Shown piece after piece: positions 3,428 through 63,216 of a stretch of DNA of 64,000 nt. The notes under the pieces were generated by a model that saw nothing but the letters and a program-made list of their open reading frames with translations, was not told the DNA's origin and made no database searches. The stretch spans positions 4,806,163 to 4,870,162 of the forward strand of contig NC_081394.1 in the NCBI RefSeq assembly GCF_030684315.1. The letters run 5' to 3'. This DNA comes from Stegostoma tigrinum. Lineage: Eukaryota. Every line of letters begins with the position of its first letter. The stretch's first letter is position 1. The translations under genes and the position numbers were made by a program.

Positions 3428-4237
3428 TCACTGGCCCTCCGATAGTGCCCACTCCCTCAGCACTGACCCTCCGACAGTGCCCACTCCCTCAGCACTGACC
3501 CTCTGACAGTGCCCACTCCCTCAGCACTGACCCTCCGACAGTGCGCACTCCCTCAGCACTGACCCTCCGACAGTGCCCACTCCCTCAGCACTGACCCTCC
3601 GACAGTGCCCACTCCCTCAGCACTGACCCACCTACAGCACGGCGCTCCCTCAGTACTGACCCTCCGACAGTGCCCGCTCCCTCAGCACTGTCCCTCTGAC
3701 AGTGCGGTGCTACCTCAGCACTGACCCTCCAATAGTGCGGCGCTCCCTCAGCACTGACCCTCCGACAGTGCCCGCTCCCTCAGCACTGACCCTCTGACAG
3801 TGCCCACTCCCTCAGCACTGACCCTCCGACAGTGCGGCACTCCCTCAGCACTCATGCTCTGACAGTGCAGCGCGCCCTCGGCGCTGACCCTCCGACAGTG
3901 CGGTGCTCCCTCAGCACTGACCCTCTGACAGTGCCCACTCCCTCAGCACCGACCCTCCGACAGTGCCCGCTCCCTCAGCACTGACCCTCCGACAGTGCCC
4001 ACTCCCTCAGCACTGACCCTCTGACAGTGCCCACTCCCTCAGCACTGACCCTCCGACAGTGCCCGCTCCGTCAGCACTGACCCTCCGACAGTGCCCACTC
4101 GCTCAGCACTGACCCTCTGACAGTGCGGCACTCCCTCAGCACTGAGCCTCCGACAGTGCGGCACTCCCTCAGCACTGACCCTCCAACAGTGCCCGCTCCC
4201 TCAGCACTGACCCTCCGACAGTGCAGCGTACCCTCAG

Positions 4238-5362: not shown

Positions 5363-5767
5363 TTGAAACTATAAGCAAACTTCCTCTGCCCTTCCTGTCC
5401 AGTCCTCCTGAGTCGATGTTAAACATTTTTTTTGGTGAGGTGTTTAGCCTGTTGTCGGTGGTTCAGGGCTGACACACTTCAGCAGGATTGGAATGTGTTA
5501 CACAGAAAATGTAACCGATCCTGATGGGTGAGATATTTTCAGCTGAAACTGCTAGAGGCTATGAAAGGTTTCTATGTGTGCACTGAGCTCAAACGTGGGA
5601 GGGACTAACTTATCGAGAGTGATAGCTCTCAGTGAAACTACAGCTCCTGAGATTTCTTCCCGATCTCAGGTATCTGTCTACACATCATCACAATAACTGA
5701 TCATTACCGCTGCAGAATGTATTGAGGAAATGCGACTGTCTCTCCCAGCATAGCAAACGTCTATCAA

Positions 5768-7067
5768 CACTGACCCTCCGACAGTGCCCGCTCCCTCAGC
5801 ACTGACCCTCCGACAGTGCCCGCTCCCTCAGCACTGACCCTCCGACAGTGCCCGCTCCCTCATCACTGACCCTCCGACAATGCCCGCTCCCTCAACACTG
5901 ACCCTCCGACAGTGCCCGCTCCCTCAGCACTGACCCTCCGACAGTGCCCGCTCCCTCAGCACTGACCCTCCGACAGTGCCCGCTCCCTCAGCACTGACCC
6001 TCCGACAGTGCCCGCTCCCTCATCACTGACCCTCCGACAATGCCCGCTCCCTCAGCACTGACCCTCCGACAGTGCCCGCTCCCTCAGCACTGACCCTCCG
6101 ACAGTGCCCGCTCCCTCAGCACTGACCCTCCGACAGTGCCCGCTCCCTCAGCACTGACCCTCCGACAGTGCCCGCTCCCTCATCACTGACCCTCCGACAA
6201 TGCCCGCTCCCTCAACACTGACCCTCCGACAGTGCCCGCTCCCTCAGCACTGACCCTCCGACAGTGCCCGATCCCTCAGCACTGACCCTCCGACAGTGCC
6301 CGCTCCCTCAGCACTGACCCTCCGACAGTGCCCGCTCCCTCATCACTGACCCTCCGACAATGCCCGCTCCCTCAACACTGACCCTCCGACAGTGCCCGCT
6401 CCCTCAGCACTGACCCTCCGACAGTGCCCGCTCCCTCAGCACTGACCCTCCGACAGTGCCCGCTCCCTCAGCACTGACCCTCCGACAGTGCCCGCTCCCT
6501 CATCACTGACCCTCCGACAATGCCCGCTCCCTCAACACTGACCCTCCGACAGTGCCCACTCCCTCAGCACTGACCCTCCGACAGTGCCCGCTCCCTCAGC
6601 ACTGACCCTCCGACAGTGCCCGCTCCCTCAGCACTGACCCTCCGACAGTGCCCGCTCCCTCAGCACTGACCCTCCGACAGTGCCTGCTCCCTCAGCACTG
6701 ACCCTCCGACAGTGCGGCGCTCCCTCAGCACTGACCCTCCGACAGTGCCCGCTCCCTCAGCACTGACCCTCCGACAGTGCCGACTCCCTCAGCACTGACC
6801 CTCCAACAGTGCCCACTCCCTCAACACTGACCCTCCGACAGTGCCCACTCCCTCAACACTGACCCTCCGACAGTGTCTGCACCCTCAGCACTGACCCTCC
6901 GACAGTGCCCGCTTCCTCAGCACTGACCCTCCAACAGTGCCCACTCCCTCCGCACTGACCCTCCGACAGTGCCCGCTCCCTCAGCACTGACCCTCCGACC
7001 GTGCCCAGTCCCTCCGCACTGACCCTCCGACAGTGCCCGCTCCCTCAGCACTGACCCTCCGACAGTG
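5768..7067 (+). repeat. 32-bp minisatellite, ~40 units, with a 160-bp higher-order period
   Basis: Variant unit catcactgac...acaatg recurs at 5861, 6021, 6181, 6341, 6501. Confidence 0.95.
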
Positions 7068-46763: not shown

Positions 46764-46818
46764 ATGAAGAACTGGCTTTTTGGCCTGCCCCTTCTAGCGA
46801 GCTGCATAACAGTAGCAG
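46764..46818 (+). CDS. ICOSLG: Signal-peptide exon (MKNWLFGLPLLASCITVA-G)
   Basis: Acceptor ccctttctttccag|G at 46762/46763, ATG at 46764, hydrophobic 18-aa leader, donor G|gtgagt at 46818/46819 in phase 1, matching the IgV exon. Confidence 0.85.
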
Positions 46819-49800
46819 GTGAGTTCACTTTACCTCAATTTAGAGGCTTAAGGCTCAATCTGAGGCCTAGCAATATGGGCTGGCACAGGAGACAATTGTA
46901 ATCCGGTATTTTTGTTTTAAAAAGAAGAAGAGGTGCTGGGAATATCTTTAACTCTAAGTCATGAAGTAAATGGCGGGATCCTTTGGCCCGCTGATACACT
47001 GAGGGTTCTTGGGGTCCAAGTTCCCTGAAAGTGGGAACACCAGTGATAAAGTGGTCAAGAAGGCCCGCAGCATGTTTGTCTTCATCGGTCGGGGCACTGA
47101 GTATAAAAGTTGGCGAGTCATATTGCAGCTGTATAAAGCTTTAGTCAGGCCACATTTGGAGTAAGTTATGTGCAGTTCTGGTCGCTGCACTATAGGAAGG
47201 ATGTGACAGCTTTGGAGGGGGTGCAGAAGAGATTTCTCAGGATTTGGCCTGGATTAGCTGTGGAGAGGTTCGGGGCAGGGCTGCGGTTGGACAAATTCTG
47301 ACTGTTTTTTGTTACAGCGTCGTAGACTGAGGGGTGACCTGACAGAAGAATTTAAAATCGAAACCATCAACTTTCCTGCTCCTCTCATGCTGCCTGGCCT
47401 GCTGTGTTCCTCCAGCTCCACACTGTGCTTTCTATGTAAAATTATGGGAGGCATAGATGGGTGGATAGTCAGAATTTTTTTTCCCAGCATGGAATTGTCA
47501 AATACTGGGGGGCACAGAATTCAATTGGAAAGTTTAAGGGAGGTTAAGAGAGAATTTGTTTTACACAGAGGGTGGTAAATGCCTGGAACACTTTGTCAGG
47601 GGAGAAGGGTGTAGAAGCAGACAGAATGGCAATGTTTTAGAGACTTTCAGACAGATACATGTACAGGCAGGGAATAGAGAGATGCGGACCATTTGCAGGC
47701 TGATGGGATTAGTTTAGAATGGCGTCGTGGTCAGCAGAAGACACAGTGGGCCGAAGGGCCTGTTCCTTGGCCATACTGTTCTCCGTTCTCACTGTGATTC
47801 CGAAGATCTGAATCACAACATCATTTTTGTAGCTTCCTGAAGTTGAAAATTAAACAAACAAACAAACAGAGACAGAGATAATGGGAACTGCAGATGCTGG
47901 AGAATCCAAGATAATAAAATGTGAGGCTGGATGAACACAGCAGGCCAAGCAGCATCTCAGGAGCACAAAAGCCGATGTTTCGGGCCTAGACCCTTCATCA
48001 GAGGCCCGAAACATCAGCTTTTGTGCTCCTGAGATGCTGCTGGGCCTGCTGTGTTCATCCAGCCTCACATTTTATTATCTTAAACAAACAGAGACATTTC
48101 ATTGCTGAGAGTAAATTTGACACCGAGCTGCAGAATTAGATATATGTTTGTAAAGGAGGGAGGAGAAAGAGGTAGAGAGGTTGAGGACTACAGAAGGCAA
48201 TGATTCTAATGTCAGGAACTGGGTGGGGGGGATCTCATGCGAGAGGTTGGCATGGAGGGAATGTGTGAAGGACTCATGGAACTCTCACAGAACAGCAGCT
48301 CCTTTCTCTCTCTTTGGGCTCTATCCTATTGTTTACTCCCTACCCCTATTTTCTGTTTTCCCAGCCACCATCAGTTCTGAGGAAAGGTCACCGGACCCGA
48401 AACGTTAACCCTGTTTTCTCCTTCACGGATGCTGCCAGGTCTGCTGAGCTTTTCCAGCGATTTTGTTTTTGTCCAGTTCATACTTGGATAGGGTAATGCC
48501 CTTGGTGAGTCTTAACAAGAAGAGGCATGTTTCCAAACAAGCTTTGCCAAACCTATCAGTGAAGTGCCTCCCCCATTTCGATGCTTCCCAAACAGGGTGG
48601 CCCCGATTTTAAGATTTCAGAGCTGGTGAAACTCTCTGGGTCAGGGGTAGTAAGGGCCAGGCTTGGCTTGGAGCGCTGTGAGTCATCGAGTCATACAGGG
48701 TGGAAGCAGACCCTTCGGCCCAACCAGTCCAGGCTGACCATAATCTTAAACAAAACTAGTCCCACCTGCCAGCTCCCGGCCCATTTCCCTCCAAACCTTT
48801 CCTATTCATGTACTTATCCAAATGTCTTTAAAATGTTGAACCTGTACCTACTTCCTCTGGACATTCATTCCACATACAAACCCAATCTCTGCGCAAAAAA
48901 AAATTCACCTCCTATCTTTCTCCTCCCATCTTAAAACTATGCACCCACGCTTGAAACTTACCCCCACCCAAACTCTAAAGAAATGATCTTTGATATTCAC
49001 CTTACCAAGATTCTTCATGATTTTAGAAACCTCTGTAACCTCCATCTCCTTTGCTCCGGCGAACAAAGGTCCCAGCCTATCCAAGCCCTCCTGAGAACTC
49101 AAACCCTCCACGCGCAGCAAATCATTTCTGAAACCTCTCCAATTTAATAATATCCTTCCCATAGTGGGGTGAGCAGAGCCGCACACAGCAATCTGAAAGA
49201 GGCACCACCGATGTCTCGTACAGCCTCAACTTGACATCCCAACTCCTATACTCAATCATCCAAGCAAGGACTGTGTTCCACCAGCCCAACACTGTGTTCC
49301 TCCAGCCCCACACAGTGTTCCTCCAGCCCCACATTGTGTTCCTCCTGCCCCACACAGTGTTCCTCCAGCCCCACACTGTGTTCCTCCTGCCCCACACTGT
49401 GTTCCTCCAGCCCCACAGTGTTCCTCCAGCCCCACACTGTGTTCCTCCAGCCCCACACTGTGTTCCTCCTGCCCCACACTGTTTCTCCAGCCCCGCCCTG
49501 TGTCCCTCCACCTCCACGCTGTGTTCTTCCAGCTCCACACTGTGTTCCTCCAGCCCCACACTGTGTTCCTCCCGCCCCACACTGTGTTCCTCCTGCCCCA
49601 CACTGTGTTCTTCCATCTCCTCACTATGTTCCTCCAGCTACCCACTGCGTTTCTTCAGCCCCCATACTCTGTTCCTCCAACCCCCCCCACATTGTGTCCC
49701 TCCAGCTCCACACTGTGTTCCTCCAGCCCCACACTGTGTTCCTCCAGCCCCACACTGTGTTCGTCCAGCTCCATACTGTGTTCCTCCAGCCCCACACTGT

Positions 49801-52800
49801 GTTCCTCCAGCCCCGCACTGTGTCCCTCCAGCCCCACAGTGTTCCTCCAGCCCCACACTGTGTTCCTCCAGCCCCGCACTGTGTCCCTCCAGCTCCTCAC
49901 TGTGTTCCCCCAGCCCCACACTGTGTTCCTCCAGCTCCACACTGTGTTCCTCCAGCTCCACACTGTGTTCCTCCAACCGCCCCCACACTGTGTTCCTCCA
50001 GCTCCCCACTGTGTTCCTGCAGCCCCACACTTAAGTCACTCCAGCCCCACACTTAAGTCACTCCAGCTCCCACACTGTGTTCCTCCAGCCCCACACTGTG
50101 TTCCTCCAGGTCCACACTGTGTCCTCTTTAAAGTCACCTCTCAGTCTCTGACACTCCAGGGAAAATGGCCCCAGCCCATCCAGCCTGTCCCTGTAGCTCA
50201 AACCCTCCAACCCTGGCAACATCTCTGTAAATCTTTATCAGACTGATTCCTGTGATGTAAAGACAGATGGATCCGTTCGGACTATATCCACTGGCATTTA
50301 GAAGAATAAAAGGGGTTTATCTCAAAAAAGCTTATAAAATTCTAAGAGGGTCAGACAGGGTAAACACAGGAAGGATATTCTTGATGACTGAGGGAGACCA
50401 GAGTCTCCTGGGGGTCAGGGAGGGGTGGCAAAGTCTATGGGATAGGATTGAGATGAGGGTTAATGCCTTAACTCGGAGAGTGTGGAATTCTCTGTCACGA
50501 ACAGCGAAACATTGAATGTTTGCAAAAAGGAGTTGGATATAGTCCTTGGGACGAACGGGATCGGAGGGTGGGGGGGGAGTAAAAGCAGGAACGGGGACGG
50601 TCAAGTTGAAGGCTCAAAGGGCTGAATGGCCTCCTCCGTTTTCCCGTGTCGCTGCGCGCGTTGCTTCACCTCATCGTGGTCATTCGCTGACTGCTCTGTT
50701 CACCCTTCAGGCACAGAGGCGCCCCCTGTATTGGGGATGATCGGTGAGCGGGTCACCTTGCCATGCAGGTACGAAGAGGGCAGGAGATGGCAAGTGTCTG
50801 ACCTCCGCATCCTCTGGCAGACAGCGACGGATCTGGTGGTCCACGCACAGTACGGGGTGATCGAGGAGAACAATGCCCAGGATAGCAGGTACAGGAACCG
50901 GACCAGCCTGCTGGTGGAACAGATCAGTAAGGGAGACCTCTCGTTGCAGCTTGATGCAGTGAATGCCGCCGATGGAGGGAGTTACCAATGTATCGTCTTA
51001 AAGAAAGGATTAACAAGATTTCGCAAGGTCAAGGCAAGTCACGTCAGCCTCATCACAGCAGGTAAACACCCCAACCCCCGGAGAGCCCATATTTAATCAT
51101 TTTCATTTCTGCTCCCTCCTCTGCAACATGCTCAAACTCAGGCTGCCTCTAAACTCCATACATCTCTCATGCTAATACCACTCCACTACGGACCCTCCAA
51201 CAGTGCACACTCCCTCAGCACTGACCCTCTGACAGTGCCCGCTCCCTCAGCACTGACCCTCCGACAGTGCACACTCCCTCAGCAGTGACCCTCTGACAGT
51301 GCCCGCTCCCTCAGCACTGACCCTCCGACAGTGCACACTCCCTCAGCACTGACCCTCTGACAGTGACTGCTCCCTCAGCACTGACCCTCCAACAGTGCGG
51401 CGCTCCCTCAGCACTGACCAACCAACAGTGCCTGCTCCCTCAGCACTGACCCTCCGACAGTGCCAGCTCCCTCAGCACTGACCCTCCGACAGTGCCTGCT
51501 CCCTCAGCACTGACCCTCCGACAGTGCCTGCTCCCTCAGCACTGACCCTCCGACAGTGCCCACTCCCTCAGCACTGACCCTCCGACAGTGCCCACTCCCT
51601 CAGCACTGACCCTCCGACAGTGCCCATTCCCTCAGCGCTGACCGTGTGTGTGCAGCATAAATTGCATTGTGTCAACCTTGTGTCTTGCCTTCCTGTAGCC
51701 AATTACAGTTTGCCGGTGATATCTGGGCCAGCGCAGGGTGAGATTGGCCTGGGAGAGGAGGTGAACCTCACCTGCAGTTCCTTCGGAGGCTACCCAGCGC
51801 CGGCCGTGTCTTGGGTTGACTGTGATGGCCGGACCCTGCCAGAGGATGCCCATGTGGACACGTTCTCCTCCGAACCAGGCAGTGGGCTCTACAACGTCAC
51901 CAGCGTCCTCCAGATCACGGCAACGAGGAATACCAGTCTCTCTTGTGCCATCTTTAACAAGAGCACCCAAGAAAGGAAGACGTCGTTCCCTTGGAAATGT
52001 AATTTGGAATCTGGCATTTGTTCAGGTCAACTTGGGAGTTTCTGCAACCCCTCTCCAAAAACTCCATTTCCAGTGACCCCCCGTCCCTCATCCTCTCAGA
52101 CCCTGTCGTCACTTCCCCTACCCCTCTCCCGCCCTGACTTCCCCTCGCTAGCAATCCATGAGCAGCACAATGCCCACCCCACCCACCCCCTCGGAACAAA
52201 ACTTTCATTCTTCACCATTTTCAAATCTCTCCCCACCCGCGGGACCTCAATGCTCTCCCACCTGTATCTCTCACCCCCTCTCCAGTGCCTCGGATTGTTG
52301 TGGGTGGGGGGTAGCGTGGGATCACAGCCCAGGAAGGAAGTTGAGGGTGAGAATCTCCCACAAATAGCTCCAGGATGATGAAGGCTAGGGTCCTCATGTT
52401 GGAAAGTGTGACAACCCTGAGATTTCGTGTCGCATACGTAGTATAGATGTGTCGGGCCAAATGGCCTCTCTGTCTGATACAACTTTATCAAACCTTCCCT
52501 ATCCGTGTAATCCCCTCCCCCCTCCCTATAAACCCCTCCATCCCTTCCCTATCTCTGTAACCCTCTCCAGCCCCTACACCTCCTCCCGATCTCTGTAACC
52601 CCCTCCATCCCCTCCCTATCTCTGTAATGTCCTCCAGCCCCTACACCCCCTCCCTATCTCTGTAACCCTCTCCAGCCCCTACATCTCCTCCCTATCTCTG
52701 TAACCCCCTCCAGCCCCTACACCCCCTCCCTGTCTCTGTAACCCCCTCCAGCCCCTACACCTCCTCCTGATCTCTGTAACCCCCTCCAGCCCCTCCCTAT

Positions 52801-55800
52801 CTCTGTAACGTCCTCCAGCCCCTCCATCCCTTCCCTATCTCTGTAACCCTCTCCAGCCCCTACACCTCCTCCCGATCTCTGTAACCCCCTCCAGCCCCTA
52901 CACGCCCTCCCTATCTCTGTAACCTCCTCCAGCCCCTGCACCCCCTCCCTATCTCTGTAACCCCCCCTCCAGCCCCTACACCCCCTCCCTATCTCTGTAA
53001 CCTCCTCCAGCCCAGACACCCCCTCCCTATCTCTGTAACCTCCTCCAGCCCCTACACCCCCTCCCTATCTCTGTAACCTCCTCCAGCCCCTACACCCCCT
53101 CCCTGTCTCTGTAACCTCATCCTCAAAGGGGAGGTGATGAATTTTGGTATTATTGCTGAACTGTTCATCTGAATTCGAATCCTACCAGAGCAGATGGTGG
53201 AATTTGAATTCAATAAAATATGTGGATTTAAGAATCTAACATTGACCATGAATCCATTGTGGGAAAAGCCCATCTGAGTTCACTGATCATGGGAACTGCA
53301 GATGCTGGAGAATCCGAGGTAACAAAGTGTGAAGCTGGATGAACACAGCAGGTCAAGCAGCACCTCAGGAGCACAAAAGCTGACGTTTCGGGCCTAGATG
53401 AAGGGTCTAGGCCCGAAACGTCAGCTTTTGCGCTCCTAGGATGCTGCTGGGCCTGCTGTGTTCATCCAGCCCCACACTTTGTCATCTGAGTTCACTAATG
53501 TTTCCTGGGGAAGGAAAGTTCCATCTTTACTGGTCTGGCCTACACGTGACTCCAGACCCAAAGCCAGACGGTTGACCCTTCAACTGCCAATCAGAGATGA
53601 GCATTAAATGCTGACCTAGTCAATTAAAAAGATGAGAATCCCCAGACCCGTCGAACATCGCCAAATTCCCACTGGTCTGCCATTGGGGGCCGTGCGTTCA
53701 GCAGCCCGTGGTCCTGACCTCAGTAATTCCCTTCAGAAGCCTGTCCCATCTCCCTTCTCTCTCTTGCTGTTCCTCGAAGAGGCCAGCGTGCAACATCCCG
53801 CTCTGATCCCCCCCATTTCTCCCATCCCCTCGTGACACTCCATGCCGGAGCTCAGTCAGAAAATGGCTAGGAATGTTTCAGCTTTGCAGGAGAGAAATTG
53901 AAATTGTGTCTGTTGTGTGCATCTGAGCCCCTCGTAACGGAATTTGTTTTGATTTAGTTTTGCTGAAACCCATTCTGCATCACAATACCCCCACGAAATT
54001 CATCGGCGCCATAATAATTGCAGTGCTAATTATCTTTGCTGTCGGAATTGCGATCTATCTGTGGAGAAGGTCTCGCAATAATTACAGAGGTACGCACCTA
54101 CTCACGACTGTTTGGATGGGGAATAGAGCTGGCTTTCTCACGTTCCCTCCAGTATCATCTCGGTTCCATTGGGTTCTTGGGAAATTGGGGCGTCGGTAGG
54201 CCATTCAGCCCATCGGGTTCTCCTGTATCATTCAACAAGATCACAGCTGATCCACCGCTCCCCGACACAATCCCCGTCCTCCGCAGATATTGCTAATTGC
54301 TAGAAACCTCTCCCTCCCTGTCTCTGGAATGACTCAGCGATGCAGCCGTAGTCAGTTCAGTCCGAAATGACCTGACCCTGCTCCTGGTAGCTGTGTTCCC
54401 CCGCCCCGGTTCTAGATGCACTCACAGGGACGAACAGTCACCTCCTGCCTGGGGCTCTGGGGAACTTGAACTCTGCTACATTTGGAGTTGAGAGCTCGCT
54501 TCAGAAATGGTGCCTGAGTGGCATCAGGCTCATTGAAGGCCACAGGGAGGGGGATACCTGCTGCCCTTGTCCTTCTAGATGGAAGCCCTTCAGTACGACT
54601 GTAATTCCTTCCCCAACAGCATGGCAGGTTTGGAATCTGCTGTCTTTGTATCTTTGGTGAATTTCTGCAGAGCATCTTGTAGCTGGTACACACTGCTGCT
54701 ACTGAGCGTCAGTGGGAGGAAGGGAGTGGGATGTTTGTGGATGTGGTGCCAATCGAGCCGGGGCTGCTTTGTCCTGGATGGTGTCGAGCTTCTTGTGTGT
54801 TGTCGGGGCTGCCCCCAGCCAGGGGCAAGTGGGGAGTATTCCATCGCACTCCTGACTTGTGCCTTGTCGATGGGGGGACAGGCCTTGGGGGAGGGAGTGA
54901 AGATCCCTAGTCTCTAACCTGCTCTTGTGCTGAAAGTGACTTTAAGATGTATATTTTATCTGATAGATCAAAACAGGTTTTGCAGTTTCTCATCTGAAAT
55001 GCGAGTATGTTTCTTGTCGTTTGCAGTTGCCAGAGTCACGGATGCCTTCGTCAATCATGATTCCGCAGTGAACTGGCCCAATCGTAAGTCACATGTGGGA
55101 ATGGTTTTGGTTGTGTTTGGGCAACATGGCCCTGGGCGGGAGGTCCTAGAATGGTACAGTGTGCCGAAAACGCACACAGATCGGGAATATTGCAGGCCAG
55201 TTTGCTGCCCATGTGGAAATTCCAAAGAGATGTTGCTTGGGATATCGATGGTTGCAAATGTCAGGTAGCCTGGGGTCTGGATAAGTAGTGAAGACAGCTA
55301 ACCAGCAGGGGTCAACAGAGATTTATCCAAGGGTCACAGACCAGATAACAGTCATGAACAGATGACTGCAAATAATCAATAAGGTTCATACCATTCTGGT
55401 CTTCATTTGAAGACAAGAACACAAAGGAGTTCTTTTTAATTCATGAACAGAATGAGGGCGTCGCTGGCTAGGCCAGCATTTATTGCCCATCCCTAATTAC
55501 CCAGAGGGTAGTTCAGAGTCGACCACATTGCTGTGGGACTGGAGTCACATGTAGGCCAGACCAGGTAAGGATGGCAGTTTCCTTCCCTAAAGGACATTAG
55601 TGAACCAGATGGGTTTTTCCAAAAATCGACAATGGATTCATGGTCATCATTAGCCTCTTAATTCCAGGGTTTTTTAAAAAATTGAATTCAAAGTCCACCA
55701 TCTGCCATGGCAGGATTCCATTCTGGGTCCCCAGAACATTACCTGGGTCACTGGAATAACAGTCCAGCCAGAGTTGTGAGAGCATGGAATGCGTTGCCAG

Positions 55801-58800
55801 CAGCAGTTGTGGAAGCAAGGTCATTGGGGTCATTTAAGAGACTGCTGGACATGCATATGGTCACAGAAATTTGAGGGTGCATCCATGAGGATCAATGGTC
55901 GGCACAACATTGTGGGCTGAAGGGCCTGTTCTGTGCTGTACTGTTCTATGTTCTATAATATCATGAGGCCCTGATGCTTCCCTCTGGTTGTTGTGCTCCA
56001 GTTGTACAGATCCCTGGTTAGATAGAGTCATGGAAACAGGATCTTCGGCCCAACTCGTCCATGCCGAGCAAGTTTCCCAAACTAAACCAGTCCCCTTTAC
56101 CAGCCTTTGGTCCGTATCCCTCCAAACCTTTCCTGTTCATGTACAAGTCCAAATGTCTTTTGGCTAACAAGGTGTAGAGCTGGATAAACACAGCAGGCCA
56201 AGCGGCATCTTAGGAGCAGGAAGGCCCAGACCCATCATCAGAAATGGATAGATGTTGTAATTGAACCTGGATCCATCACTTCCTCTGGCAGTTCATTCCA
56301 CAAATGAAACACCCATCCCTGTGAAAAGTTTGCCCCTCTTTTAAATCTTCCTCCTCTCACCTTAAAAATATGCCCTCTGGTTTTGAACTCCCCCCTTCTG
56401 GGAGAAGAGATCTTTACCGTTCACCCTATCCATGATTTTGAAAATCTCCATAAGGTGACCCCTCAACCTCGTACACTCCAGTGGAAGAGAGTCCCAGCCT
56501 ATCCAGCCTCTCCTTATAACTCTAGTCTCAGCAACGTCCTGGTCAATCTTTGTTGAACTCTCTCCAGCTTCATAATATCCTTCCTATAACAGGGCAACCA
56601 GAACCACACATAGTGCTCCAGAAGAGTCCTTATCAATGTCCTACACAACCTCAACATGATGTCCCAACTCCGATAACTCGAAGGTCCCAGCAATGAAGAC
56701 AAGAGTGCTAACTGTTTCCTTAACCATCCAGTCTCTCTGTGAGAAAGGGGAGCAGGGAGAGGGCTGCTCGCACTGCACCTATTTCCTTGAAGTTCCCGTC
56801 CCATGTAGATGGGGTGGTTAAAAAGGCGATTAGTACACGCACCTTCGCTGTGTTGAGTATAGGAGCTGGGACATCATTGCAGAGGTTGTACAGGATGTTA
56901 GTGAGGCCTCTTCTGGAGGACTGTGTTCAGTTCTGGCTACAGGAAGGAACGAATTAAACTGGAACTGGGATTGTTTTCCACTGGAGCGTAGGTGGTTGAG
57001 AGGTGACTTTATGAAGGTTTATAAAATTGTGAGGGGCATAGATAAAGTGAATGACAGGAGTCTTTTTCCGAGGTTTGGCGGGGGGGGGGTATTTCAAGGC
57101 TTAAGTAGCGTGTTTTTAAGGTGAAAGGAGAAAGGTTTTAAAAAAGGACATGATGAGCAACGTTTTTAACACAGAGAGAGAGTCAGGTGCAGAATGAACA
57201 GCCAGACAAAGTGGTAAATGTGGGTACAGTTACAGCATTTAAAAGATATTTGCACAAATACGTGAATAGTAAAGGTTTGGAGGGATACAGGCCAGGAGCA
57301 GGCAGGTGAGACTAGTTTGGTTTGAGATTATGTTGGACTGGTGAGACTGAAGGGTCTGTTTCCATGCTGTATAACTCGATGTAACTTAGGTTTAGCCCTT
57401 AATAAGATGCTGCAATACTGTTTGGAATGTGGGATTAGTGATGGAACCATGTGAAAGTGCCAACCAGCTGAAGCCCAGGCGGACTTCAAACAGGCTACAA
57501 TTAGCTTTATCATCAGCAAATGTGGATGCATTGAGCTGCCTCCCGCTGGGAGATACACCACCGATGGACCAGCACTGGAAGAGATTGTAATGGTTTTAAA
57601 TTTTCTGTCATCCTTCCACTCACAGCTGACAATACTAGACTTTAGACGCAGGAAGATCCGATCCTGGCAAAACTGAATCAGCTGGTGATCGTGGAGAAAC
57701 CAAAGGGCCATCACAACCAGAACTGAGACATTTTTGGATGCAGAGAGACACCAGAGGCAGATTATTATGGGGAGCAAGAGTGGTTGTCCCGAGCAAAGGA
57801 CACTACCAGATACTGGCTGAACTCCACCAGGGTCATCCAGGGGTCTCCACAATGAAGATTTATGTCCATTGGCCAGGACTGGATGGTGACATAGCCGCTT
57901 TGGTGGGGCAGTGCCCAGAGTGCCATCAAGGACAGACATTACTGGCAGCAGCTGCCCCGCACTTGTAGGAATAGACCCGGGACTCAGCTACACATTGTGC
58001 ATGCAGGTCCATTCCTGGGCTCAACATTCCTGGTCATCGTGGGCACCCACTCAAAGTGGCTGGATGCACCTGGAGTTCTTTTGTCAAACGCGGGGTTCAG
58101 GATGGAAAAACTGCATCGATCTTTTGCAACATGTGGATTTCCGGAAGGGTCGGTCACAGCTAATGGGCCAAGCAGAGAATTTGAGTATTTCCTCAAATTG
58201 AATGGCATTTCAACAAACAAGGACAGCTCCATACCCATCCATCGCCCAGTGGTCTGGTGGAAAGAGAAGCCCTAACTTTGAAGGTCTGACTTAAAGAAAC
58301 AACCCACGGCTTCGCTCGATACCGAAGTGCAGCCACAGGGATAGCCTCTAGCAGAGTTACTGATGTGGAGAAGGTTCTGTAGCAGGTTACACCTGTTCCA
58401 CAGGGAGGGTAAAACAGCATCAGGAACGCTAATCTTGAACAAAAGGCTAAGCGAGAGAGACAGTTTACTTCGGCGGGGGGGGGGCAACAGGAGTGGCCCT
58501 GCGTGGGTAAGAAACCTGGTCAACATCAGCTCAGGTCTGGTGATGTACAAGTTCAAGATGGGTGCGACAGTCCTGCACAAGCAGCCAGACACGTACCAAA
58601 GCTAAAAACTTGCAAACGGTGCAGGTGCAAAACCTGTACCTGGCCCCTCAGAACGGCTCTTGGAACCTGTAGGTTCACCCTCTCTTCCAAGTGTTGAGAA
58701 ACCTCAGAGGGTGAGATGGGCACCGCAGATGTCATAGCGTCAAAGCCTTTACCACCAGAAGGAGGAGAATTGATGCTGTAGTTGGTTGGCTCTCCATTGA

Positions 58801-58929
58801 GTTCACCAACATTTCATTACCCGGCTGGGTAACATCTGTGCAGCCTCAAATGAAGCGCTGTTGTGCTTTCTTGCCTGGTATTTAAACTCCATTGGATTCA
58901 ATCACCTATTTCTGGTGTCCTTTGCAGTG

Positions 58930-58962
<33 letters not shown>

Positions 58963-61900
58963 GGTCTAGTTCTATGTGGTTGTTGACGGCCTTCTAGGTG
59001 GAGAACCAGGCCTCTAGGAGTTCCCATGCTTGTCTCTGTTTGGCCTGCCCTAGGATCCTGGAGTTGTCCCAATCAAACTGGTGGTTCTCCTTATCCATGT
59101 GAATGGAGATGAGTGAGTACTGGCCATGTCTTTTTGTTGCCAACTGATGTTCATGTATTCCTACGGCCAGCTTCCTTCCTATCTGTCCAATGTAATGTTT
59201 ATCAGAGTCTTTGCACGGAGATGTGACCCAGCAGGGTAATGAAACATCAGCAAACTAACAAACCAGCTCGGTGAGCCGACCAGCCACAGCATCCACAACC
59301 GAAGCCCCAAATCTACTCAAAAATTTCAGAACAGAATGAATTTCTTCTGAGTTCTTCTGGGGACAAGAGGTGAGCTATGGTCTGGTATACCTTCCCAGTA
59401 TCTGTGTCTGAGTCGGACACACTGGATCCGGCGCGGAAATGCCCCAAGAGTGGCCACGAGATAAAGAACAGGGGGAGGGATGTAGCAATTGTAACAGGTT
59501 CAACCTGGCGGCTCTCATAGAATATGAGATCCCTGAATGGGGCTGTTCATCTGGTCCAATTGTGGAGCCCTGGCTGTGGAGCAGTGATCTATCTGAGAAA
59601 GTCCAGCAATAATTACAGAGGAACGCACCTACTCACTGCTGTTTGGATGGGTAGTAGAGCTGACTTTCTCACGTTCCTGCCAGTATGATCTCGGTTCCAT
59701 TGGGTTCTTGGGAAATTGGGGCGTCGGTAGGTCATTCAGCCCATCGGGTTCTCCTGCACCATTCAACAAGATCACAGCTGATTCACTGCTCAACGCCACT
59801 TCCCCACACTGTACCCATCTTCCGCGGATATTGCTAATTGGTGGAAGCCTCTCCCTCCGTCTCTGAAATGACTCAGCGATGTAGCCGTCCTCAGTTCAGT
59901 CCGAAATGACCTGACCCTGCTCCTGGTAGCTGTGTTCCCCCCCCCCTCCCCCACCCTGATTCTAGATGTACTCACGGGGACAAACATTCACCCTCTGCCT
60001 GGGGCTCTGGGGAACTTGAATTCTGCTACATTTGGAGTTGAGAGCTCACCTCAGAAATGGTGCCTGAGTGGCATCAGGCTCATCGAAGGCCACAGGGAGG
60101 GGGATACCTGCTGCCCTTGTCCTTCTAGATGAAAGCCCTTCAGTACAACTGTAATTCCTTCCCCAACAGCATGGCAGGTTTGGAATCTGCTGTCTTTGTA
60201 TCTTTGGTGAATTTCCACAGGGCACAGGTCATCTTGTATATGGTACACACTGCTGCGACTGAGTGTCGGGGGGTGGGGGAGAGTGGGATGTTTATGGATG
60301 TGGTGCCAATCGAGCGGGGGCTGCTTTGTTCTGGATGGTGTTGAGCTTCTTGAGTGTTGTCGGGGCTGCCCCCATCCAGGGGCAAGTGGGGAGTATTCCA
60401 TCACACTCCTGACTTGTGCCTTGGGGATGGTGGGACAGGCTTTGGGGAGTCATGAGGGGAGATACTCGCTGCAGGATTCCCAGCCCCTGGCCTGCTCTTG
60501 TGGTAAAGTGATGTGTGCATATTTTACCTGTTAGATCAAAGTAGGTTTTGCAGTTTCTCGTCTGAAACGGGTTTCTTGTCATTTGCAGGGACCCGAAATT
60601 CCGACGTGTCCCTCGATCACAAATTCCCAGAGGCCATGCCCAATGGTAAGTCACCGCGGAGATGGTACTGGGTTTGCATTTTGTTTGGAGAATGTGGCAC
60701 TGAGCAGGAAACCCTGGCATACAGAGCTGCCTGGTGCAGTGTGCCAACAAACACACAGATATTGCGAGCCACATGGATGGAGATGTGAAATTACAAGGAG
60801 ATATATGCATCGGCAGATTTAGACTATCAGAGGTTCTACTCACTCTGAGAGCTGGGAGGTATTACACACCTTTAAAAAGAGCTTGACTGGGTGAAAGGTT
60901 ACTGACCTCTGTGGAGCTATTTCAGATAGGGAGGCACTTTTTCCTTTAGAAGAGGGCTCAGGGGACATAGATGTAAGGAATGCAACAGAAACCTGAGAGG
61001 ACAGCTGTGTCCTTGAATCATAGTCATAGAGCCAAACAGCATGGAAACAGATCCCCCAGTCCAACTTGTCCACAACGACCAGATAACCTAAATAAATCTA
61101 GTCCCGTTTGACAGCATTTCGCCGATATCACTCCTAACCCCAGCCACTCACATACCCATCCAGGTGCCCTGTTAAATATTGTAACTGTACCAGCCTCCAC
61201 CACCTTCTCTGGCAGCTCATTCCATACACTCACCACCCTCTGCATTACTTTTAATGCGGCTGCCCCTTCAGTTCCTTTAAAATTTTTCCTGTCACCCTAA
61301 ACTCACCCCCTCTAGTTTTGGGCTCCCCCACCCTGGGGAAAAGATCTTGGCTATTCGTCCTCTCCATGCCCCTCATGATTTTATCAATCTCTATCAGGTC
61401 ACCTCTCAGCCTCTGCAAATAACCTCTCCCTGTAGCTCGAACCCTCCAACTCTGGCAACATCCTTGTAAATCTTTTCTGAACACTTTCAAGTTTCACAAC
61501 ATCCTTCCTGTAGCAGGGAAACCAGAACTGAACTCAGTATTCCAAACGTGACCATAACCAATGTCCTGTACAGCTGCAACTTGGCCTCCCAACTCTTACA
61601 CTCAATACAATGTCCAACAAAGACAAGCAAACTATACACTTTCTTCAATATTCTATCTACCTGGGGCTGTGGAGAAATTTTTCACCCAGAAGGTTGTGGT
61701 CACTGTCCAAAAAGTCTTGTTAGATCAGAAACTCTTGTAATGTTTCAGCAGTATTTTTTATTGAGATATTCACTTGGGAGCCTCTAGGGCTTCATGCCAA
61801 GAGCTGGAGAATGGAATGAGTGTAGTCAGGAACAGCCATGGTGGGCTGAATGGCCTCATTGTATGCTGTGAAATGACAACATGTCAGTCTACAACAAAAA

Positions 61901-62257
61901 CAGGAATTGCTGGAAAAATCTTGACAGGGTCTGTGGAGCAAAATCGGAGTTTTGGGTCAATATGACCCTTCTTCAAAATCAACCAGACCCGAAACATCAA
62001 TTCTGATTTCTCTCTGCAGCTGCTGCCAGGCCTGCTGAGCTTTTTTCCAGCAAGCTCTGTTATTGTTCCTGATTTACAATGTCCACAGTTCTTTCGCTAT
62101 CTTTATTTCATGAGTTTGTCTAAACTTCCTCAAGTAAGGAGATTGAAAACAACAGACATAGCTCCAGGACGTGACCATGCCAACAGATAGCAAGTAACCT
62201 TGGTCTCCTTTCATTACAGAGAAAGAGAAGATCAATATACAACAGGATTCTGTGTGA
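46764..62257 (+). CDS. ICOSLG: B7-family costimulatory ligand, ICOS ligand (B7-H2/CD275)-like; spliced CDS join(46764-46818,50711-51061,51699-51998,53958-54089,55027-55083,60589-60645,62220-62257), 329 aa
   Basis: Manual splicing gives a 990-nt open frame with all introns GT-AG and phase 1. Architecture is SP-IgV-IgC-TM-short tail. Motifs WQT, DSRYRNR, GDLSL, YQCIVL, AANYSLPVIS, TCSSFGGYPAP, GLYNVTSVL and the juxtamembrane NYRG| match my recollection of mammalian ICOSL (WQT, DSRYRNR, GDFSL, AANFSVPVVS, TCTSINGYPRP, GLYDVVSVL, SYAG|). B7 family is secure; orthology versus CD276 or other B7s is not tested. Confidence 0.8.
47876..48080. mobile_element. Palindromic Penelope-derived insertion
   Basis: Inverted arms; flanking duplication aaacaaacagagaca. 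Confidence 0.8.
49270..50122 (-). repeat. 21-bp minisatellite (reverse, degenerate) in the SP-IgV intron
   Basis: Tandem tgtgttcctccagccccacac. Confidence 0.9.
50711..51061 (+). CDS. ICOSLG: IgV-domain exon (GTEAPPVLGMIGERVTLPC...LWQT...DGGSYQC...HVSLITA)
   Basis: Acceptor cacccttcag|, donor G|gtaaac, 351 nt; canonical V-set Cys, Trp and DxGxYxC. Confidence 0.95.
51190..51645 (+). repeat. 32-bp minisatellite filling most of the IgV-IgC intron
   Basis: About 14 units ending ~55 nt before the IgC acceptor. Confidence 0.93.
51699..51998 (+). CDS. ICOSLG: IgC-domain exon (ANYSLPVIS...NLTCSSFGGYPAPAVSW...GLYNVTSVL...LSCAIFN...FPWK)
   Basis: Acceptor ttcctgtag|, donor T|gtaatt, 300 nt; B7-type C-domain signature C-x-S-x-GGYPxPxVxW; several N-glycosylation sequons. 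Confidence 0.93.
52495..53120 (-). repeat. 38-bp minisatellite (C-rich strand) in the IgC-TM intron
   Basis: Tandem ccctatctctgtaaccccctccagcccctacaccccct. Confidence 0.92.
53285..53485. mobile_element. Palindromic Penelope-derived insertion inside a SINE
   Basis: Inverted arms; 14-bp duplication catctgagttcact. Confidence 0.8.
53958..54089 (+). CDS. ICOSLG: Stalk and transmembrane exon (FLLKPILHHNTPTKFIGAIIIAVLIIFAVGIAIYLWRRSRNNYR)
   Basis: Acceptor ttttgatttag|, donor G|gtacgc; ~22-aa hydrophobic helix followed by basic stop-transfer RRSR. Confidence 0.9.
55027..55083 (+). CDS. ICOSLG: Cytoplasmic exon A (VARVTDAFVNHDSAVNWPN)
   Basis: Acceptor ttcttgtcgtttgcag|, donor C|gtaagt, 57 nt, phase 1-1, open frame. 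Confidence 0.7.
57400..58770 (+). mobile_element. Decayed Ty3/Gypsy pol (integrase) fragment; PPT and 3' LTR start at 59471-59570
   Basis: LLWGARVVVP...ELHQGHPG...WPGLDGDI...CPEC zinc finger; AGPFLGSTFLVIV...SKW core; gggggaggga|TGTAGC polypurine tract / LTR junction at 59480/59481. Confidence 0.85.
58772..59335 (-). mobile_element. Second Penelope-like family fragment (GIY-YIG) with inverted terminal repeat, nested in the Gypsy element
   Basis: Minus strand 59101-59218 reads PCKDSDKHYIGQIGRKLAVGIHEHQLATKRH; 58772-58840 is the inverted counterpart of 59220-59295. Confidence 0.8.
59573..60800 (+). repeat. Intragenic duplicate of 54038-55260 (3' end of TM exon, intron, cytoplasmic exon)
   Basis: Colinear alignment; TM-exon remnant has donor GT>GA at 59621-59622. 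Confidence 0.92.
60589..60645 (+). CDS. ICOSLG: Cytoplasmic exon B, paralog of exon A (xTRNSDVSLDHKFPEAMPN)
   Basis: Acceptor ttcttgtcatttgcag|, donor G|gtaagt, 57 nt, phase 1-1, open frame; lies in the duplicated segment. Confidence 0.7.
62220..62257 (+). CDS. ICOSLG: Terminal coding exon (EKEKINIQQDSV*)
   Basis: Acceptor ctcctttcattacag|, in-frame TGA at 62255-62257, followed by ~950 nt of non-repeat sequence and AATAAA. Confidence 0.65.
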
Positions 62258-63210
62258 TGCTAACATTTGTGGCACTCAAGGGATGAGCGGAGGAGGCGTT
62301 GGAGAGTTTGGGACTTAGGGGCTGGATAGGAACGTGGACATGGGCTGCGTTGGCCCGTACTCACCAGATATTTGCACCTCTACTGCAGCCCCTGTGCCTT
62401 CCACCTTCCCACGATGCCCCCCTCCCCCACATTAGCCGAGCAGCTGAGAGCACAGGAGGATCCTGTGGCCCCATCCCTGGAGGGAGCTGAACCTGAGCTG
62501 GCTGTGCGTGTAAAGTGGTGGGTAGAGGGGCAGGAAACTGCATTGGGGAGGATTGGAGGCACACTGCAAGTGAGCCTGTAGAGGGGTAATTCCAGGCAGG
62601 GAGGGAACTGTTCTTGCAATACACTGAACACTCACTCAGCCTGACTGCAATGCCGCTGCAGTCGAACAGCACGTCTGCTCTTGCACACTAGTTCCTTGAG
62701 AATGGAATGGACAGGGGAGCTGGGTGGGGCTGATGAAAGAGGATTGGAAACAAGGTGACAATGCAGATATTCTCAGTTCCCCGTGTCCAGTTCTGGAGCC
62801 CCCAACACCATGACAATCCCACCATCCTCAACACACTTTTGGAAGGAGGTCGAGCCTTTGGAGGGAGGGGGAGAGAGAGAGAGGGGGGGGGTACAGACAG
62901 GAAGGAGATTTCCTGGGGGTGCGTTGGTCACAGTTCATGCTGAGAAAGACCAGGGAGAAACTGGCATCACTTCCTTGGAGGAGGATAGGTTCAGGGGAAG
63001 GGCTGGGAGATACAAGAAAGGGGGGAAATAAGCAGGAACTGTGGGCAGCTGGAAGGCAATTAAAAGTTAGCTCTTTAAAAGAGCAGGTACAGGCAAATGG
63101 GACAAAGGGCCTGCATATGTGCTGTAAAATTCTGTGAATGATGTAAGATTGCTACAAGACGTAGCTTTATTGTGCTCTATTATCAAGAATGTATATAGTG
63201 TATTGTCATT

Positions 63211-63216
63211 AATAAA
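63211..63216 (+). terminator. Polyadenylation signal AATAAA of the B7/ICOSL-like gene
   Basis: Canonical hexamer ~950 nt after the stop, in AT-rich context with T-rich sequence downstream. Confidence 0.55.

What the first reader, a model, noticed from the sequence alone, without database searches (positions are those of the whole stretch)
54038..60800. Duplicated cytoplasmic-tail exon in a shark ICOSL-like gene: exons far more diverged than their introns
Seen: 54038-55260 is duplicated at 59573-60800. Both 57-nt exons (55027-55083, 60589-60645) keep ag/gtaagt sites, phase 1-1 and an open frame. They differ at 26 of 57 nt by my gap-free hand alignment (about 54% identity, mostly non-synonymous), while a 120-nt sample of the upstream intron differs at about 9 positions (about 92%). 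The downstream intron is intermediate. Inference: either diversifying selection on a new tail module, or an older duplication whose upstream intron was later homogenised by gene conversion. Because all exons are phase 1, A, B, A+B or neither can be included in frame, giving up to four tail isoforms that could differ in trafficking or reverse signalling.
Basis: partly seen in the sequence, partly recalled or inferred. Interest (0 to 1): 0.7.

Follow-up and report, generated by a model that had tools for sequence, protein, structure and literature searches.

The report
Old shark tail exons, recopied intron
A carpet-shark immune co-signalling gene carries two spliced copies of a short tail exon that differ far more than the intron in front of them, most likely because the duplication is old and that intron was later recopied from one copy to the other, a known process rather than evidence of rapid adaptive change.

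Summary
In detail: 54038-55241 recurs at 59573-60813; the 57-nt exons differ at 26/57 nt, the upstream intron at 65/789 and the downstream intron at 34/138. The gene is a single-copy B7-family gene (RefSeq 'ICOS ligand-like', zebra shark). One run's contig joins TM-A-B.

The contrast is best explained by an old duplication whose upstream intron was recopied later:
- Silent sites differ as much as replacement sites (6/12 vs 17/42).
- Bamboo and epaulette shark models also have two exons; white shark and catshark models have one.
- A young LINE fragment (5-8% from its family) sits at the same site in both introns.
- Against a close relative, exon A changed no faster than its flanks (5/57 vs 22/294).

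All four splice combinations are in frame, but only A+B and A-only have support. One excess remains: the exons are about twice as diverged as the downstream intron, so selection against homogenisation is not excluded. This is the known opsin-type pattern in an undescribed gene. The scan noted a similar case in shark RP1 on other DNA.

The parts
46764..46818 (+). Signal-peptide coding exon
   Evidence: tblastn of the P0006 N-terminus, 100% over residues 1-19; donor read from the sequence
50711..51061 (+). IgV exon
   Evidence: Pfam V-set E 2e-10; exon chain reproduces RefSeq models
51699..51998 (+). IgC exon
   Evidence: Pfam C2-set_2 (CD80-like) E 3e-14
53958..54089 (+). Transmembrane exon with GT donor at 54090
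   Evidence: predicted helix 248-286; its 3' end is joined to exon A in a contig of run X7
54038..55241 (+). Copy A of the duplicated segment (TM exon end, intron, exon A, about 160 nt of next intron)
54550..54930 (-). Antisense fragment of an abundant LINE-like repeat in the intron before exon A (CR1/L2-type label recalled, not from a call)
   Evidence: 6786 first-look candidates genome-wide; 4.8-7.0% from the majority letter of 28 other copies
55027..55083 (+). Tail exon A, 57 nt, phase 1-1; present in all three zebra-shark models
59573..60813 (+). Copy B of the duplicated segment
59573..59622 (+). Remnant of the TM exon 3' end; donor reads GA instead of GT; 3/35 differences plus one 3-nt gap against the real exon
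60100..60502 (-). The same LINE fragment with the same edges in the intron before exon B
   Evidence: 6.2-8.3% from family majority
60589..60645 (+). Tail exon B, 57 nt, phase 1-1; likely the optional exon (absent from RefSeq X3; lacks the branch-point-like CTCAT that A has at -38)
62220..62257 (+). Last coding exon (12 aa to the stop, terminal Val in all six species); AATAAA at 63211

Best explanation
The two 57-nt exons are spliced tail exons of a single-copy B7-family gene that likely arose by an old duplication in carpet sharks, and the intron in front of exon B was likely recopied from the intron in front of exon A much later, so the intron looks young while the exons show the older age. 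Shown: both exons are spliced together in one run's contig; silent sites are as diverged as replacement sites; one young LINE lies at the same site in both introns; exon A evolves at flank speed between species. Inferred: a single duplication before the zebra/whale-shark and bamboo/epaulette-shark lineages split; ectopic exchange (gene conversion, or an equivalent duplication-then-deletion) ending about when zebra and whale sharks split; and a role for the exons as a length-conserved, probably disordered spacer that sets the distance between the membrane and a better conserved C-terminal end. A is likely constitutive and B optional, giving a long and a short tail.
For: (1) Silent differences 6/12 against 8.2% in the upstream intron, binomial P 1.8e-4; dN/dS 0.71. 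Selection on amino acids does not inflate silent sites. (2) Two 19-aa exons in all 8 full-length Hemiscyllium and Chiloscyllium models fetched; one in the Carcharodon and Scyliorhinus models. (3) LINE body 54650-54860: 1 change shared by A and B, 9 private to A, 12 private to B in 210 columns; each copy is 5-8% from the family majority, below the 13.5% per branch implied by the downstream intron (P 0.01 to 3e-5). An element younger than the duplication in both copies must have been copied afterwards. (4) Organism B (runs X11, X12, two studies, identical tables): exon A 5/57 vs flanks 22/294, P 0.79; that flank value equals the A-B upstream intron value (65/789, P 0.80) and is far below the A-B downstream value (17/175 vs 34/138, P 6e-4). 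(5) Ectodomain distances 0.123 to whale shark and 0.47 to Hemiscylliidae predict a neutral distance near 0.3 at the family split, matching the downstream intron (simulation best fit about 0.3). (6) X7 contig of 322 nt joins TM end, all of A and the start of B at the splice sites. (7) Tail residues 279-329 have pLDDT under 50 (six-sequence alignment, so weak). The last exon keeps 8/12 residues between families, against 6/18 for each of A and B.
Against: The exon is more diverged than the downstream intron even after allowing for gapped alignment: 26/57 needs a distance near 0.7, the downstream intron fits 0.2-0.5. An earlier conversion of the downstream intron or faster change in zebra-shark exon A must be added. 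Parsimony on 18 residues slightly prefers two independent duplications (61 steps) over one old one (63). The last 70 nt of the LINE in copy A is 23-26% from other copies against 7-12% in copy B, which is unexplained. The 28 LINE copies were the best matches to copy B, which biases B's distance down. The upstream intron itself was not read in any other species. Only 12 silent sites are available. X7 is not on record as RNA.
Confidence: 0.72

Rival explanations
1. Same old duplication and conversion, but selection actively keeps A and B different: conversion tracts that crossed the exon were purged, leaving a divergence peak as in primate red/green opsin exon 5.
For: Divergence peaks on the exon, with both flanks lower (0.08-0.15 upstream, 0.46 exon, 0.25 downstream). 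The shared LINE edge puts the recopied tract within about 100 nt of the acceptor. Position 15 (Val in all three A, Glu or Lys in all four B) separates A from B across families, and positions 4, 7, 8 and 16 are compatible with that.
Against: Orthologous A or B exons keep only 6/18 residues between families. Between close species the tail changes faster than the ectodomain (15/72 vs 44/416, P 0.019) and at about intron speed. No Tyr-based or di-leucine motif is shared. High divergence alone would also block exchange across the exon.
Confidence: 0.13
2. The exon was duplicated twice independently, once in the zebra/whale-shark lineage and once in Hemiscylliidae; in the first lineage the upstream intron was still recopied later.
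For: Fitch parsimony 61 vs 63 steps; columns 11, 13 and 18 group the copies by family, only column 15 groups them by copy.
Against: It needs two duplications of the same exon in related families. Short within-lineage exchanges at the exon's 3' end would give the same family-wise columns. The downstream-intron distance matches the expected depth of the family split.
Confidence: 0.1
3. Young duplication (age given by the 8% intron) followed by diversifying selection on a new tail module, as in the first reader's first option.
For: 17 of 23 codon changes are replacements. Four adjacent letters at the start of exon B differ between the window and organism B.
Against: Silent sites 6/12 and the non-coding downstream intron 34/138 are also several-fold above 8%; both exons already exist in organism B with only 5/57 changes in A; hemiscylliid models have two exons.
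Confidence: 0.04

Closest known systems
Primate red/green (L/M) opsin pair: introns homogenised by gene conversion, divergence peak on exon 5 (PMC3924837, passages read)
   Same: Duplicated DNA in which introns are more alike than the exon; explained by conversion; peak centred on the exon.
   Different: Here the unit is one exon inside a single gene, the exchange stopped long ago (8% since), the downstream flank is only partly similar, and no functional residue or dN/dS excess is shown.
Tandem exon duplication in vertebrate genes (PMC8373072, passages read)
   Same: Homologous neighbouring exons with equal length and phase; that paper states that most tandem duplicated exons join the constitutive isoform, as A+B does here.
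   Different: Not a mutually exclusive pair: A and B are joined in the main form. The conserved, slowly evolving substitution class described there does not fit these fast-changing exons.
Human ICOS ligand and CD276 (B7-H3) (PDB 6x4g E 3e-30; 9lme E 2.5e-25)
   Same: Signal-IgV-IgC-TM-short tail layout; best single V-C hits among solved structures. Reverse signalling through ICOSL is described in mammals (PMC12750674, passages read).
   Different: Orthology to ICOSL was not tested; RefSeq names alternate between ICOS ligand-like and CD276-like. Chondrichthyan CD28-family genes could not be classed as ICOS orthologs (PMC11599192, passages read). Nothing links these tail exons to signalling.
Duplicated linker exon in shark RP1 (scan note e1-8153945, unchecked)
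   Same: Same pattern and same reading: duplicated short exon, adjacent intron homogenised.
   Different: Different gene and genome; not tested here.

Membership tests
B7 family | Signal peptide, IgV, IgC (CD80-like C2-set), one TM helix, short tail | tested here: met
   Pfam V-set and C2-set_2 above cut-off; exon chain; model
B7 family | Closest solved relatives are B7 members | tested here: met
   CD276, ICOSL, then butyrophilins, PD-L1, CD80, CD86
ICOSL ortholog | Groups with ICOSL in a B7 tree and shares its synteny | not tested
   Only similarity ranking: ICOSL 108.8 bits vs two-domain CD276 92.7 bits
ICOSL ortholog | Binds an ICOS-type receptor | not testable with these tools
   No binding data; shark CD28-family genes are not classed as ICOS orthologs
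Tandem exon duplication | Homologous adjacent exons of one gene with working splice sites | tested here: met
   gene is single copy, next best IgV 39% or less
Mutually exclusive exon pair | Only one of the two exons per transcript | tested here: not met
   X7 contig and 10 of 11 full-length models from three species carry both exons
Interlocus gene conversion (concerted evolution) | A tract between paralogs is younger than the duplication | tested here: met
   8.2% tract vs 24.6% downstream and 50% silent; change point 0/500 permutations; shared young LINE
Interlocus gene conversion (concerted evolution) | Paralogs within a species closer than orthologs in a species that split earlier, over the same tract | not testable with these tools
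   No hemiscylliid genomic DNA was obtainable; the organism B laying covered only 54940-55290
Positively selected duplicate | dN/dS above 1, or exon faster than neutral flanks between orthologs | tested here: not met
   dN/dS 0.71 between copies; 5/57 vs 22/294 between species; low power
Selection-protected divergence peak (opsin type) | Peak centred on the exon with low divergence on both sides and fixed functional differences | tested here: inconclusive
   Peak present, downstream flank only partly lower; one clearly copy-specific column

The most novel reading that the evidence does not exclude
Carpet sharks built a switchable cytoplasmic tail on a B7 co-signalling ligand: selection has shielded two different tail cassettes from repeated gene conversion since before the carpet-shark families split, and regulated skipping of exon B changes trafficking or reverse signalling.
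Probability: 0.12. Interest if true: 0.55.

Novelty: new member of a known kind. Interest (0 to 1): 0.27.

Why it matters
It is a well-dated example of how exon-versus-intron divergence between duplicates can mimic positive selection: a shared young retroelement and one ortholog comparison expose the intron as recopied. For shark immunology it adds a carpet-shark-specific lengthening of a B7-family tail with one optional exon. It would matter more only if the two tails were shown to behave differently. No description was found in the two shark searches (listings and abstract starts only), but both exons are already in RefSeq models.

Tried and rejected
No RNA holder was listed on record by the run search. 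(53850-62400, likeness 85) was swamped by repeat contigs: 15 joints were shown of 417 and none was a splice joint, so skipping forms could not be counted. X9, X24 and X19 gave no cover on the TM exon or exon A, and X14 none on 54940-55290; these blanks are not evidence. No A-last, TM-B or TM-last contig was seen in X7, but contigs drop rare forms. A likelihood tree of the tail peptides could not be built (18 columns). Assembly artefact rejected: organism B holds separate A and B contigs and two other families' models have both exons. A TM-less, A-less whale-shark form (model P0002 on a 7,022-nt contig) is doubtful: organism B, whose exon B letters read like that model, has an intact exon A with unchanged splice sites. 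Conserved regulatory DNA as the cause of intron identity rejected: the tract contains a decaying LINE and a dead exon remnant. CpG decay as the cause of exon excess: only 6 of 26 differences are in CpG context. Similar repeat pieces at 56029-56670 and 61040-61595 (66-69%) were read by eye as separate insertions of abundant elements, not tested. No complex prediction was run. Scan look-ups by place and by sequence returned nothing.
Full report
Observation. A self-comparison finds the duplication, and local alignment sets it at 54038-55241 and 59573-60813. The two 57-nt exons have AG and GTAAGT sites and differ at 26 of 57 letters without gaps. Segment counts: TM remnant 3/35; upstream intron 54090-54880 65/789 (8.2%); 54881-55026 21/135 (15.6%); exon 26/57 (45.6%); downstream intron 34/138 (24.6%). 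With the exon left out, a change point near 54900 is still found (0 of 500 permutations). The downstream alignment is real (score 81, best of 1000 shuffles 30).

The gene. The exons at 50711, 51699, 53958, 55027, 60589 and 62220 translate letter for letter into the zebra-shark RefSeq models XP_059497236 and XP_059497237 (TM-A-B-last) and XP_059497238 (TM-A-last). The B-only and no-exon chains are also open but match no stored model. The domains are IgV and a CD80-like IgC. The best solved relatives are CD276 and ICOSL. The gene is single copy in G000; other IgV matches are 39% identical or less. ICOSL orthology was not tested. AlphaFold2 on a six-sequence alignment gives two Ig domains, a TM helix and pLDDT under 50 for residues 279-329.

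Splicing. In run X7 one 322-nt contig carries the end of the TM exon, all of exon A and the first part of exon B, joined at the splice sites. The run is not on record as RNA, but the genome holds no intron-less copy among the matches. Its depth (70) accounts for the cover of the TM and exon A bins. Ten of 11 full-length models from zebra, epaulette and bamboo sharks carry both exons; one lacks B. B lacks the branch-point-like CTCAT found 38 nt before A, which weakly fits B being the optional exon. So two isoforms have support, not four.

Age of the exons. Nei-Gojobori counts over 18 codons give 6 silent differences at 12.0 sites and 17 replacements at 42.0 sites (dN/dS 0.71). Six of 12 is very unlikely at 8.2% (P 1.8e-4). 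Epaulette and bamboo shark models have two 19-residue exons in the same place; white shark and catshark models have one. Parsimony on 18 columns does not settle one origin or two: 63 steps for a single old duplication, 61 for independent ones. I prefer one origin on economy and because the ectodomain distance to Hemiscylliidae is 3.8 times that to whale shark (0.47 vs 0.123), which predicts a neutral distance near 0.3, the value that best fits the downstream intron in simulation. This step is inference.

Age of the intron. Both upstream introns hold the same antisense repeat fragment with the same edges. Against 28 other genomic copies (the best matches to copy B among 40 scored), its body shows 1 change shared by A and B, 9 private to A and 12 private to B in 210 columns. 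Including a shared cluster near 54636-54649, A and B lie 7.0% and 8.3% from the family majority; other copies lie 2.6-5.7% from it. That is below the 13.5% per branch implied by the downstream intron (P 0.001 and 0.01). An insertion younger than the duplication can be in both copies only if the intron was copied afterwards. The dead TM-exon remnant at the start of copy B shows the same young divergence; at that end the source was copy A, because the real TM exon still codes. One oddity: the last 70 nt of the element in copy A is 23-26% from other copies, against 7-12% in B.

Ortholog test. Two DNA runs of organism B from two studies each gave one contig across 54940-55290 with 27 differences and no gaps, and a second contig that continues into an exon B. 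Read by hand, those exon B letters give the same residues as the whale-shark model P0002. Exon A differs at 5 of 57 letters (by my codon reading 3 replacement, 2 silent), the flanks at 22 of 294 (P 0.79). So there is no local acceleration in exon A. [quoted passage not shown] Exon B differs at 5 of its first 30 letters, four of them adjacent, and at 4 of 18 residues. Pooled over two species pairs the tail changes faster than the ectodomain (15/72 vs 44/416, P 0.019), at about intron speed.

What remains. After simulating gapped alignment, the downstream intron fits a distance of 0.2-0.5 and the exon about 0.7 (P of 26 or more differences is 0.009 at 0.4 and 0.09 at 0.5). The exon is thus a peak with lower values on both sides. 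Either the downstream intron was also converted earlier, or exon A ran fast in the zebra-shark line (it keeps the fewest residues against other copies), or selection kept the exons apart. The data do not separate these.

How it likely works. The exons keep length, frame and splice sites but few residues: only an acidic residue at position 6 is common to all nine sequences, and no Tyr-based or di-leucine motif is shared. The last exon is better kept (8/12 between families; terminal Val in all six species), which resembles a PDZ-binding end (recalled, untested). The simplest role is a flexible spacer: one or two 19-residue units between membrane and C-terminus. Reverse signalling is known for mammalian ICOSL (PMC12750674, passages), but nothing here ties it to these exons.

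Comparison and verdict. The pattern matches the L/M opsin case of converted introns around a divergent exon (PMC3924837, passages) and ordinary tandem exon duplication with both exons included (PMC8373072, passages). Two searches for a shark B7 tail duplication listed no paper whose title or abstract start describes it; supplements were not read, and subscription papers are outside the library. The scan has a similar unchecked note for shark RP1. It is a real, expressed feature and a new member of a known kind; interest 0.27.

Noticed in passing
P0002 (whale-shark model, 7,022-nt contig): The model joins IgC directly to exon B, without TM exon or exon A. The zebra-shark IgV-to-last span minus the A-B offset is about 6 kb, so a collapse or deletion between the two copies would fit that contig; a gap in the assembly would too.
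   Followed up: partly
window 54861-54929: End of the LINE fragment in copy A has deletions and is 23-26% from other family copies, against 7-12% in copy B; unexplained.
   Followed up: partly
window 57639-58275: Broken frames resembling an LTR-retroelement integrase region (label recalled) in the spacer between the copies; little repeat cover.
   Followed up: no
G000:C53:5341127-5659557 and 4754482-4754808: About a dozen further IgV exons (29-38% identical to this gene's IgV) lie within about 0.8 Mb on the same contig, a possible IgSF cluster.
   Followed up: no
window 62184-62383: Run X9 has an exact 200-nt contig that starts 36 nt before the last exon's acceptor; unspliced RNA or DNA.
   Followed up: no
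window 13743-15180, 33066-34379, 49270-50126; 3429-4237, 5764-7067, 51188-51643; 30914-32330: Several long minisatellite arrays, two families recurring at three or more places in the window, one inside the IgV-IgC intron.
   Followed up: no
window 24039-24644 and 25220-25826: A 607-nt stretch repeated at 99.8% identity between N runs; very recent duplication or assembly effect.
   Followed up: no
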